Source: Escherichia coli (lineage in GTDB: Bacteria > Pseudomonadota > Gammaproteobacteria > Enterobacterales > Enterobacteriaceae). From it: a stretch of DNA of 64,000 nucleotides. A program made the position numbers. The DNA lies in NCBI RefSeq assembly GCF_003790525.1, contig NZ_CP033635.1; one strand, given 5' to 3'. Below, in pieces: positions 34,552 to 37,500 of the stretch (position 1 is its first letter; each line of letters begins with the position of its first letter).

Positions 34552-37500
34552 TGGTACGCGAGCTGGGTTTAGAACGTCGTGAGACAGTTCGGTCCCTATC
34601 TGCCGTGGGCGCTGGAGAACTGAGGGGGGCTGCTCCTAGTACGAGAGGACCGGAGTGGACGCATCACTGGTGTTCGGGTTGTCATGCCAATGGCACTGCC
34701 CGGTAGCTAAATGCGGAAGAGATAAGTGCTGAAAGCATCTAAGCACGAAACTTGCCCCGAGATGAGTTCTCCCTGACTCCTTGAGAGTCCTGAAGGAACG
34801 TTGAAGACGACGACGTTGATAGGCCGGGTGTGTAAGCGCAGCGATGCGTTGAGCTAACCGGTACTAATGAACCGTGAGGCTTAACCTTACAACGCCGAAG
34901 ATGTTTTGGCGGAAGAGACATCGATAAGTAAGCTTGATAACAGATTAAATCAGACCGCAGAAGCGGTCTGATAAACAGAATTTGCCTGGCGGCCTTAGCG
35001 CGGTGGTCCCACCTGACCCCATGCCGAACTCAGAAGTGAAACGCCGTAGCGCCGATGCTAGTGTGGGGTCTCCCCATGCGAGAGTAGGGAACTGCCAGGC
35101 ATCAAATTTAGCGTGCTGATATGGCTCAGTTGGTAGAGCGCACCCTTGGTAAGGGTGAGGTCCCCAGTTCGACTCTGGGTATCAGCACCACTTTTTAGGT
35201 TAAAGTTCGGCAGATTAGAAAAGAATTTGTCTGGCGGCAGTAGCGCGGTGGTCCCACCTGACCCCATGCCGAACTCAGAAGTGAAACGCCGTAGCGCCGA
35301 TGGTAGTGTGGGGTCTCCCCATGCGAGAGTAGGGAACTGCCAGACATCAAATCAAGCGAAAGGCCATCCAAAAGGATGGCCTTTTTGCGTTTCGAATCTA
35401 TGTACAACTTAATGGATAACCTGCGATAAAAATGCCCTCGTACGCTCCGATTTAGGATGCGCAAAAAATTCATCAGGTGTAGCTTGTTCCACTATCTCCC
35501 CACGATCCATAAAAATCACCCGGTCAGCGACGGTTCGTGCAAACCCCATCTCGTGCGTTACGCACAACATTGTCATACCTGACTGCGCCAGCCCAATCAT
35601 TGTATCCAGCACTTCTTTCACCATCTCCGGATCGAGCGCAGACGTAGGTTCGTCAAACAGCATGATCTTTGGTTTCATACAAAGTGAACGTGCTATGGCA
35701 ACGCGTTGCTGCTGACCACCTGAAATCTGTCCGGGAAACTTATGCGCATGTTCGGCAATTCTCACCCGCTCAAGGTAATGCATCGCCAGAGCTTCAGCCT
35801 CTTTCTTTGGCATCTTGCGTACCCAAATCGGTGCCAGGGTACAGTTCTGTAGAACGGTCAGATGAGGGAAGAGATTGAAATGCTGAAAGACCATTCCCAC
35901 TTCCTGCCTGACGCGCTCAATATTGCGAATATCTTCGTTAAGCTCGATGCCATCTACCACGATCTGTCCCTGTTGGTGTTCTTCCAGATGATTAATACAA
36001 CGAATGGTTGTCGATTTACCGGAACCAGAAGGGCCACACAGAACGATCCGTTCTCCCGGTTGCACGGTTAAATTTATATTTTTCAAAACATGGAATTGCC
36101 CATACCATTTATTGACGTTTTCCAGCGTAATCATCGCGTTAGCAGGTTGCAGTAAAATTTGGCTCATAGTGTCCTCAATGCGGTGTACGCCCGGTGTTAA
36201 AACGTTTTTCCAGATGCTGGCTATAGCGCGACATGCTGAAACAGAAGATCCAGTAGATCAGTGCGGCGAAAACATACCCTTCCGTCGACATACCCAACCA
36301 GGCGGGATCAACGGTTGCCTGCTGAACGCTACTGAAAAGATCGAACAACCCGATGATGATCACCAGGCTGGTATCTTTGAAGAGTGCGATGATGGTATTT
36401 ACCAGCCCAGGAATCACCAGCTTCAACGCCTGTGGCAGAATAACCAGCCCCTGGGTTTTCCAGTAACCCAACGCCAGCGACTCTGCCGCTTCATATTGCC
36501 CTTTAGGCAGCGCCTGTAATCCGCCTCGCACGACTTCCGCAACATATGCTGACTGAAACAGGATCACGCCAACCAGCGCGCGGATCAATTTGTCGATACT
36601 GGTGCCTTCTGCCATAAACAACGGCAGCATGACCGAAGACATAAACAGAACGGTAATCAGCGGTACACCGCGCCAGAACTCGATAAAAATGACCGATAAG
36701 ATACGCACAATCGGCATATGGGAGCGACGACCTAACGCCAGTAAGATCCCCCACGGCAGCGCCCCCGCAATCCCAACTGATGCAATAATTAAAGTTAGCG
36801 TCAGCCCGCCCCATTGCCGGGTTTCAACCCGCTCAAGACCAAGAAACCCGCCATACATCAGCCACCAGACAATCAGTGGGTAAATCACCGCCCATACCGC
36901 AATATAGCGACCGCGATACGGGAGTATTTTCCAGAACATTGGTGCGATCGATACAAGCCCAATCAGTAATGCCAGGTTAATTCGCCAGCGTTGGTCGTGT
37001 GGGTAAAGCCCATACATAAACTGACCAAATCGTTCGTGGATGAAGACCCAACAGGCACCGGCTTTTGTGCAGTCGGCACGCGTTGAGCCAACCCAGTTAG
37101 CTTGCAAAAATGCCCAGTTCAGCAACGGTGGGATCAGTTCCCACATCAACCATATGCAGCCAATAGTCAGCAGGCTATTGCTCAAGCTGGAGAACAGATT
37201 TTTTCGCACCCACACCATCGCGCGGCTTGAGTTATGGCTCGCCGGGCGCGGGGGATGAGACAGCAATACTTTTGTCATCATGACTCCTTAGCGTTCAACG
37301 ATCGCGATGCGGCGGTTATAGATATTCATCAGCAGCGAGATAGTCAGGCTGATAATCAGATAGACCGACATGGTCATGGCTATCGTCTCGATGGCTTGCC
37401 CCGTTTGGTTCAGCACGGTGCCAGCAAACAGCGAAACCATATCGGGATAGCCAATAGCGGCGGCAAGAGAGGAGTTCTTGACGATGTTGAGATACTGGCT

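What the first reader, a model, noticed from the sequence alone, without database searches (positions are those of the whole stretch)
34983..35347. The two 5S rRNA copies differ at five positions, including a compensatory base-pair change in helix I
Copy 1 (34983-35102) and copy 2 (35228-35347) differ at positions 3 (C/T), 12 (C/A), 13 (T/G), 86 (C/G) and 117 (G/A). Positions 3 and 117 pair in helix I, so C3-G117 in copy 1 becomes U3-A117 in copy 2, a covariation that preserves the helix and argues both copies are under structural selection rather than one being a decaying duplicate. Copy 1 also deviates from the canonical E. coli 5S at two positions.
Basis: seen in the sequence. Interest (0 to 1): 0.15.

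Follow-up and report, generated by a model that had tools for sequence, protein, structure and literature searches.

The report
Known E. coli rrfD/rrfF 5S pair
The two 5S rRNA genes are the long-known rrfD and rrfF genes at the end of the E. coli rrnD operon, and their differences are standard alleles shared by thousands of strains, except one base (G76C in loop E of the first copy) that no other E. coli genome carries and that may be a private mutation or a sequencing error.

Summary
The window is the E. coli rrnD operon: 16S, tRNA-Ile, tRNA-Ala, 23S, 5S (rrfD), tRNA-Thr (thrV), 5S (rrfF), then a terminator. Apart from three sites it is identical to strain SMS-3-5 over all 64 kb.

The two 120-nt 5S genes do differ at five positions. 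The Rfam model pairs position 3 with 117, so C3-G117 to U3-A117 is a genuine compensatory change.

It is not new. Copy 2 is base-for-base K-12 rrfF, and about 85% of complete E. coli genome records hold an exact copy. The U13 in copy 1 is also common (4,092 records).

The exception is C76 (window 35058) in loop E of copy 1, the L25-binding motif. It is absent from all 5,426 complete E. coli genomes and from enterobacterial-type 5S in metagenomes, and it costs 4 bits against the Rfam model. The same loop E sequence does occur naturally in some environmental proteobacteria. Without reads I cannot tell a private mutation from a base-call error. Interest is low.

The parts
31985..34888 (+). 23S rRNA gene (rrlD) immediately upstream of the two 5S genes
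   Evidence: Rfam RF02541, 2870.8 bits, full length. Annotated as rrlD or 23S in K-12 and SMS-3-5.
34983..35102 (+). 5S rRNA copy 1 = rrfD. It is the U13 allele plus the private base C76.
   Evidence: RF00001, 89.2 bits. It equals SMS-3-5 rrfD except at position 76.
35058..35058 (+). Position 76 of copy 1: C where every other E. coli 5S gene has G. It lies in loop E, opposite G100.
   Evidence: This is the only mismatch to SMS-3-5 within window 34900-35420. No exact match to positions 20-116 exists in 43,428 5S places. A 41-nt probe that can only hit if C76 is present found nothing in 5,426 genomes. The change costs 4.0 bits (93.2 to 89.2) in the Rfam model.
34985..34985 (+). Position 3 of copy 1 (C), which pairs with G117 at window 35099 in helix I
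   Evidence: Rfam CM alignment: the first pair of helix I.
35115..35190 (+). tRNA-Thr(GGU) = thrV, between the two 5S genes
   Evidence: ARAGORN, Rfam tRNA 70.7 bits, and the K-12 thrV annotation.
35228..35347 (+). 5S rRNA copy 2 = rrfF, carrying U3, A12 and A117; identical to K-12 rrfF
   Evidence: RF00001, 90.2 bits. It matches K-12 b3272 and SMS-3-5 rrfF at 120 of 120 bases. It is exact in 34 of 40 evenly spaced E. coli records.
35230..35230 (+). Position 3 of copy 2 (U), which pairs with A117 at window 35344: the compensatory pair
   Evidence: Rfam CM alignment. RNAfold keeps helix I intact in both copies.
35359..35395 (+). Terminator hairpin (AAAGGCCATCC-AAAA-GGATGGCCTTT) followed by a T-run, lying between rrfF and the convergent gene yhdZ
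   Evidence: The scan found the hairpin at 35359-35384 and reported it on the - strand. On the + strand the same palindromic hairpin is followed by TTTTTGCGTTT. K-12 has the homologous hairpin.

Best explanation
This is the distal end of the E. coli rrnD operon: rrlD, rrfD, thrV, rrfF, then the terminator. Both 5S genes are transcribed as part of one precursor. Both are flanked by the same short sequences, where RNase E is known to cut the 5S precursor, and both should yield functional 5S rRNA.

Four of the five differences are fixed or common alleles in the species: C3U with G117A, C12A, and G13U. rrfF carries U3-A117 in helix I in place of C3-G117. This is an old compensatory double substitution that most likely passed through a U3-G117 wobble intermediate, and purifying selection has kept it since. 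Position 12 sits in the unpaired loop A junction. Position 13 is polymorphic in rrfD among strains.

The fifth difference, G76C in loop E of rrfD, is private to this sequence. It is either a recent mutation tolerated because seven other 5S genes buffer it, or a base-call error. It is not part of any established allele.
For: Shown by tool results:
- Operon anatomy and synteny (yrdA, 16S, Ile, Ala, 23S, 5S, Thr, 5S, yhdZ) match K-12 and SMS-3-5.
- The window equals SMS-3-5 over 64,000 b except for a 23S allele cluster and two single bases.
- Copy 2 is identical to K-12 rrfF, and it is exact in about 85% of E. coli records (34 of 40 evenly spaced rows; 5,308 of 5,463 records are within one mismatch).
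- rrfF carries U3, A12 and A117 in K-12, SMS-3-5, SCU-172, O157:H7, FDAARGOS_1077 and APEC O1.
- The U13 allele is present in 4,092 records.
- The Rfam alignment pairs position 3 with 117.
- In RNAfold the U3-G117 intermediate costs 0.6 kcal/mol, against 5.1 kcal/mol for C3.A117.
- The immediate flanks of the two genes are identical, and a terminator hairpin follows copy 2.
- C76 is absent from all 5,426 E. coli genomes and from enterobacterial-type 5S in 241 million metagenome records.

From the literature: rrnD holds a tRNA-Thr gene between two 5S genes (PMC4696680).

Inferred: the order of the two helix I substitutions, buffering by the other 5S copies, and RNase E processing of both copies (from established knowledge of 9S RNA processing, recalled from memory).
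Against: Nothing contradicts the rrfD/rrfF assignment. Expression and ribosome incorporation of either variant were not measured here. The covariation is a single evolutionary event (n = 1), so on its own it is weak statistical evidence. By my rough estimate, two of five random differences would fall on a pair and preserve it about 2% of the time. About 15% of E. coli records lack an exact copy 2, although those sampled differ by only one further base and keep U3-A117.
Confidence: 0.92

Rival explanations
1. The C at 35058 (G76C) is a sequencing, assembly or editing artefact, and the true rrfD is the ordinary U13 allele.
For: The base is an absolute singleton. It is absent from 43,428 5S places in 5,425 genomes and from metagenomes in the enterobacterial context. 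The window holds a second absolute singleton, 49394 G>T (prmA P45Q). Both are transversions at G in a background that is otherwise identical to at least 8 genomes. It hits a base the Rfam model strongly prefers as G, at a cost of 4 bits. rRNA repeats are also classic sites of assembly and polishing errors (general knowledge).
Against: The source is not simply SMS-3-5. It carries a different but common 23S allele at 33847-33856, and no genome in the collection matches the window completely. It is therefore an independent strain, in which a few private SNPs are expected. Substitution errors are rare in modern polished assemblies.
Confidence: 0.45
2. G76C is a real, recent, private mutation in rrfD that is neutral or mildly deleterious. 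It persists because it affects one of eight 5S genes and has not yet been removed by selection or by gene conversion.
For: The same loop E sequence (C76 opposite G100, with all six other loop E pairs as in E. coli) is the natural 5S sequence in 10 environmental proteobacterial loci, including Rhodospirillaceae and Thiotrichales MAGs. C76 opposite A100 occurs in 8 more. Together these give 18 distinct sequences that fall into a few groups sharing the same 3' halves, which I read as inherited states rather than errors. L25, the loop E-binding protein, is not essential in E. coli: the rplY::kan strain is slow-growing but viable (PMC4408793). Most E. coli genomes hold eight 5S places (median 8).
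Against: C76 is never seen in 5,426 E. coli genomes, so if it arises it does not spread. Loop E is described as highly conserved in bacteria (PMC4408793). There is no evidence about the base's quality.
Confidence: 0.45
3. One of the two 5S genes is a decaying, non-functional duplicate.
For: rrfF is an extra, eighth 5S gene. Copy 1 carries a change in a conserved motif. One E. coli strain (A11) has lost a copy by rrfD x rrfF recombination.
Against: Both genes score 89-90 bits against a threshold of 38. The only paired difference between them is compensated. rrfF is identical in K-12, SMS-3-5 and APEC O1, and exact in about 85% of records. The flanks and the terminator are intact.
Confidence: 0.03
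4. The 5S variants, especially C76, specify functionally specialised ribosomes.
For: Differences between E. coli rrn operons have been proposed to have functional consequences (PMC4696680, PMC11883441). C76 lies in the L25 site (PMC1976436, PMC4408793).
Against: No data here bear on function. C76 is a singleton and so is not maintained by selection. The rrfF differences lie in helix I (compensated) and loop A.
Confidence: 0.03

Closest known systems
E. coli K-12 MG1655 rrfF (b3272), the second 5S gene of rrnD
   Same: It is identical to window copy 2 at 120 of 120 bases, including U3, A12 and A117. It has the same position after thrV and before yhdZ.
   Different: The gene itself does not differ. 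Downstream, K-12 has about 190 extra bases (an rrnB-T1-like terminator plus a repeat of the 5S 3' end) that the window and SMS-3-5 lack.
E. coli SMS-3-5 rrfD (ECSMS35_RS18025), the common U13 allele of 5S
   Same: It matches window copy 1 at 119 of 120 bases, in the same locus, with flanks that are 100% identical. O157:H7, APEC O1 and SCU-172 have the same allele at rrfD, and 4,092 records hold it.
   Different: The window has C instead of G at position 76 (35058). K-12 rrfD has G13 rather than U13.
Bacterial 5S rRNA loop E, the L25-binding motif of seven non-Watson-Crick pairs
   Same: Copy 2 has the standard E. coli loop E. Copy 1 keeps six of the seven pairs (72/104, 73/103, 74/102, 75/101, 77/99, 78/98). 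PMC1976436 and PMC4408793 describe the motif: seven non-Watson-Crick pairs, a symmetry centre at G75-A101, and L25 binding.
   Different: In copy 1 the 76/100 pair is C opposite G, which could form a Watson-Crick pair, instead of G opposite G. From memory of Correll et al. 1997 and Leontis & Westhof 1998, G76.G100 is a non-canonical bifurcated pair. The nearest-neighbour model makes a C76-G100/U77-A99 stack mildly favourable (arm energy -13.9 versus -12.7 kcal/mol).
Natural C76 5S rRNAs of environmental proteobacteria (for example the Rhodospirillaceae MAG JAHEKF010000130.1 and the Thiotrichales MAG DTYI01000220.1)
   Same: Their loop E strands are the same as in window copy 1 (GAUGCUAG / GAGAGUA). 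Each lies downstream of 23S wherever the contig extends that far.
   Different: They are different organisms with different helix I, II and III sequences. There C76 is the lineage's normal state, whereas in E. coli it is a singleton.

Membership tests
5S rRNA (Rfam RF00001) | Covariance-model score above the gathering threshold over the full model length | tested here: met
   Copy 1 scores 89.2 bits and copy 2 scores 90.2 bits against a threshold of 38, both covering model positions 1-120.
5S rRNA (Rfam RF00001) | Helix I closed by pairing of the 5' and 3' ends, including pair 3-117 | tested here: met
   The CM alignment pairs 3-117 as C-G in copy 1 and U-A in copy 2. RNAfold predicts helix I 1-10/110-119 in both copies.
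5S rRNA (Rfam RF00001) | Conserved G of the loop E 'AGUA'-type consensus (E. coli G76) | tested here: not met
   Copy 2 has the G. Copy 1 has C, which costs 4.0 bits relative to the otherwise identical SMS-3-5 rrfD (93.2 versus 89.2). This is one non-consensus base in copy 1 only; the family score is still passed by a wide margin.
5S rRNA (Rfam RF00001) | Location downstream of 23S rRNA in an rrn operon | tested here: met
   The 23S gene ends at 34888 and copy 1 starts at 34983.
E. coli rrnD distal arrangement rrfD-thrV-rrfF | Gene order 23S, 5S, tRNA-Thr(GGU), 5S, terminator, flanked by yrdA upstream of the operon and yhdZ downstream | tested here: met
E. coli rrnD distal arrangement rrfD-thrV-rrfF | Second 5S gene carries the rrfF allele (U3, A12, A117) | tested here: met
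   It is identical to K-12 b3272. The same three bases are found in six strains across the species.
E. coli rrnD distal arrangement rrfD-thrV-rrfF | First 5S gene equals a known rrfD allele | tested here: not met
   The best match in 5,425 genomes is 119 of 120 bases. The mismatch is C76, which occurs in no E. coli 5S gene.
Decaying or pseudogenised rRNA duplicate | Uncompensated helix disruptions, a low model score, loss of processing or termination signals, and a variable sequence in the population | tested here: not met
   The one paired change is compensated. The scores are high. The flanks and terminator are conserved. rrfF is exact in about 85% of records.
Expressed, ribosome-incorporated 5S variant | Detection of each variant RNA in ribosomes | not testable with these tools
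   No RNA or read data are available.

The most novel reading that the evidence does not exclude
G76C is a real mutation that is transcribed and assembled. Roughly one ribosome in eight in this strain would then carry a 5S rRNA whose loop E has a Watson-Crick-capable C76-G100 in place of the G.G pair. That would alter L25 binding or central-protuberance assembly: a natural loop E mutant in an otherwise wild-type E. coli.
Probability: 0.05. Interest if true: 0.3.

Novelty: already known. Interest (0 to 1): 0.08.

Why it matters
It matters little. The two-5S arrangement of rrnD and the rrfF allele have been in the E. coli literature and in every K-12 annotation for decades, so the finding confirms a textbook case of compensated rRNA heterogeneity.

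Three small points have some use. First, the compensatory U3-A117 pair is fixed in rrfF in every strain sampled here, across the species. Second, a natural rrfD x rrfF recombinant (strain A11) breaks the pair, giving C3.A117. Third, the window carries a loop E base (C76) seen in no other complete E. coli genome. If real, that base would be a free natural mutant for studying recognition of loop E by L25. If it is an error, it flags the quality of the source assembly.

Tried and rejected
1. Decaying-duplicate hypothesis. Rejected on model scores, the compensated pair, conserved flanks and population invariance.

2. C76 as a known allele. I searched the whole 120-nt gene, positions 20-116, and a 41-nt probe that requires C76 against 5,426 E. 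coli genomes. None matched. A 44-nt enterobacterial-type pattern in metagenomes gave 0 hits.

3. C76 as incompatible with any functional 5S. Rejected, because the same loop E sequence occurs in 18 environmental 5S genes.

4. Literature on the G76.G100 geometry and L25 contacts. The primary papers are not held in the library (Correll 1997; Lu & Steitz 2000, PMC15747; Leontis & Westhof 1998, PMC1369688; Reblova 2003, PMC1302943). No held paper contains G76, G100 and 'loop E' together. The exact pair geometry is therefore given from memory only. Duester & Holmes 1980, the original rrnD distal-end sequence, was also not found and is cited from memory.

5. Thermodynamic folding of whole 5S. The MFE structures do not reproduce the known internal architecture, and only helix I is reliable. 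I used them only for the helix I energy comparison.

6. Taxonomic depth of the U3-A117 allele outside E. coli (Salmonella, Shigella and others).

Full report
**What is there.** Rfam and ARAGORN show a complete rRNA operon on the + strand:
- 16S rRNA, 29997-31538
- tRNA-Ile and tRNA-Ala
- 23S rRNA, 31985-34888
- a 5S gene, Rfam hit 34985-35100
- tRNA-Thr(GGU), 35115-35190
- a second 5S gene, Rfam hit 35230-35345

A megablast of 34900-35420 against 5,426 complete E. coli genomes places this between 23S and yhdZ. That is the distal end of rrnD, with two rrf genes and a tRNA-Thr annotated under the match. K-12 MG1655 annotates the same arrangement as rrlD, rrfD, thrV, rrfF. [quoted passage not shown] From memory, this arrangement was first sequenced by Duester & Holmes in 1980; I could not retrieve that paper.

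**Checking the observation.** Direct comparison gives five differences: 3 (C/U), 12 (C/A), 13 (U/G), 76 (C/G) and 117 (G/A). The base is window 35058 against 35303, in GAUGCUAG versus GAUGGUAG.

The Rfam covariance-model alignment makes position 3 the first 5' base of helix I and pairs it with 117 in both copies, C-G in copy 1 and U-A in copy 2. RNAfold also keeps helix I 1-10/110-119 in both. The compensatory change is real. By my rough estimate, two of five random differences would fall on one of the roughly 34 pairs and restore pairing about 2% of the time (an inference, not a tool result).

**Is it new?** No. Copy 2 is identical at all 120 bases to K-12 rrfF (b3272) and to SMS-3-5 rrfF. 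In a ranking of 5,463 E. coli records sampled at even steps, 34 of 40 held an exact copy, and 5,308 were within one mismatch.

I fetched the rrnD tails of six strains from across the species: K-12, SMS-3-5, SCU-172, O157:H7, FDAARGOS_1077 and APEC O1. In all six, the second 5S gene carries U3, A12 and A117. Two of them have one additional private base, U87A in O157:H7 and G18A in FDAARGOS_1077.

Copy 1's U13 is also ordinary. SMS-3-5, O157:H7, APEC O1 and SCU-172 have it at rrfD, whereas K-12 and FDAARGOS_1077 have G13. In all, 4,092 records hold a 5S gene one mismatch from copy 1. Because C76 never occurs (see below), that mismatch is at position 76.

It is met for copy 2 and for four of the five differences.

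**Are both copies functional?** Everything testable here says yes:
- Both genes score 89-90 bits against a threshold of 38.
- The eight bases spanning each mature end are identical in the two genes: AGAATT|TG upstream and CAT|CAAAT downstream. From memory, RNase E cuts the 9S precursor at these sites.
- The only terminator-like hairpin (35359-35384, followed on the + strand by TTTTTGCGTTT) lies after copy 2, so both genes sit inside the transcription unit.
- rrfF is near-invariant across the species, which argues for purifying selection.

A decaying duplicate is therefore not supported. The energy comparison suggests the order of the two helix I changes. A U3-G117 intermediate costs only 0.6 kcal/mol, whereas C3.A117 costs 5.1 kcal/mol. 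C3U probably came first; this is an inference.

**The one unusual base.** The window is identical to SMS-3-5 over all 64,000 bases except at three sites:
- A cluster at 33847-33856 in 23S. This is a common 23S allele: 8 of 20 evenly spaced records hold an exact match.
- 35058 G>C.
- 49394 G>T.

Position 35058 is 5S position 76. Four searches failed to find C76 elsewhere in this context:
- No E. coli genome matches copy 1 exactly; the best is 119/120.
- None matches positions 20-116; all 5,463 records score 96/97.
- A 41-nt probe centred on C76, in which every 28-base seed word must include that base, found nothing.
- A 44-nt enterobacterial-type pattern with C76 gave no hit in 241 million metagenome records.

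Restoring G raises the Rfam score from 89.2 to 93.2 bits.

Position 76 lies in loop E. PMC1976436 and PMC4408793 describe this motif as seven non-Watson-Crick pairs, symmetric about G75-A101, highly conserved in bacteria, and the binding site of protein L25. By the antiparallel register, G76 faces G100. From memory of Correll et al. 1997 and Leontis & Westhof 1998, this is a bifurcated G.G pair. With C76, a Watson-Crick C76-G100/U77-A99 stack becomes mildly favourable in the nearest-neighbour model, with arm energy -13.9 versus -12.7 kcal/mol. Such a stack could compete with the native geometry; this is an inference.

**Is C76 compatible with a working 5S?** Apparently it is in other lineages. 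The 20-mer GCGCCGATGCTAGTGTGGGG occurs in 4 of the 100,044 species-representative genomes, all proteobacterial MAGs, and in 14 metagenome contigs. Rfam confirms the four MAG matches as 5S genes, three of them next to 23S. The 14 metagenome matches align to 5S throughout but were not scored with the model. Ten of the 18 have C76 opposite G100 with all six other loop E pairs as in E. coli. Eight have C76 opposite A100. All 18 sequences are distinct, and they fall into a few groups sharing the same 3' halves, which I read as inherited states rather than errors. L25 itself is dispensable in E. coli: rplY::kan is slow-growing but viable (PMC4408793). E. coli also has a median of eight 5S places per genome. 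A real G76C in one gene would therefore probably be tolerated.

**Real or artefact?** I cannot decide.

For an artefact: C76 is an absolute singleton. The window holds a second absolute singleton, also a transversion at G (49394, prmA P45Q; no exact 101-nt match in 5,425 genomes). The background is otherwise identical to at least 8 genomes.

For a real mutation: the source is an independent strain, not SMS-3-5 itself. Its 23S allele differs from SMS-3-5, and no genome in the collection matches the window completely. A couple of private SNPs in such a strain are unremarkable. I give the two readings roughly equal weight.

**Verdict.** The feature is the long-known rrfD/rrfF heterogeneity of E. 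coli rrnD. The only non-routine element is the private loop E base C76, whose reality needs read-level data. Interest is low.

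Noticed in passing
window 49394 (- strand gene prmA, 48646-49527): This is a second private single-base change relative to SMS-3-5 and all other E. coli genomes. G>T on the + strand gives P45Q in PrmA, the ribosomal protein L11 methyltransferase. No exact 101-nt match exists in 5,425 genomes. Like G76C, it is a transversion at G in a ribosome-related gene, although much of the window is ribosome-related.
   Followed up: partly
window 33847-33856 (23S positions 1863-1872): A cluster of differences from SMS-3-5, including a 2-base indel. It matches a common alternative 23S allele that is exact in about 40% of E. 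coli records and is present in strains SBF22 and MINF_1A at rrnD. This looks like ordinary allele variation between operons, possibly gene conversion.
   Followed up: partly
window 35348-35400 versus L004 (K-12 NC_000913.3 3423194-3423423): K-12 has about 190 extra bases after rrfF: an rrnB-T1-like terminator followed by a repeat of the 5S 3' end (ACTGCCAGACATCAAAT) before the second hairpin. The window and SMS-3-5 go straight from rrfF to that second hairpin. This looks like a deletion or insertion between the direct repeats.
   Followed up: no
L027 (E. coli A11, giraffe, NZ_CP028763.1 500172-500291): This strain has a single 5S gene at rrnD and no thrV. The gene is a chimera with the rrfD 5' end (C3, C12, G13) and the rrfF 3' end (A117), which gives an uncompensated C3.A117 mismatch in helix I. 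It is presumably an rrfD x rrfF recombination that deleted thrV.
   Followed up: partly
L025 and L026 (O157:H7 PNUSAE146743; FDAARGOS_1077): These rrfF variants each carry one extra base change on the U3/A12/A117 background: U87A (loop D) in O157:H7 and G18A in FDAARGOS_1077. They account for part of the roughly 15% of genomes without an exact copy 2.
   Followed up: no
L005-L022 (environmental 5S genes): In one group of environmental 5S genes (L005, L015-L018, L022), C76 is accompanied by A100 and C101. The central G75-A101 pair of loop E becomes G-C and the 76/100 pair becomes C.A. This is a coordinated alternative loop E.
   Followed up: no
window 31869-31977: Rfam StyR-44 (123.9 bits) matches the spacer between tRNA-Ala and 23S. 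It is a known annotated element of enterobacterial rrn spacers.
   Followed up: no
window about 40467-43564 (acrF, - strand; coordinates converted from NC_010498.1 3642433-3645530): acrF is annotated as frameshifted (a pseudogene) in SMS-3-5. The window is identical to SMS-3-5 there, so it shares the frameshift.
   Followed up: no
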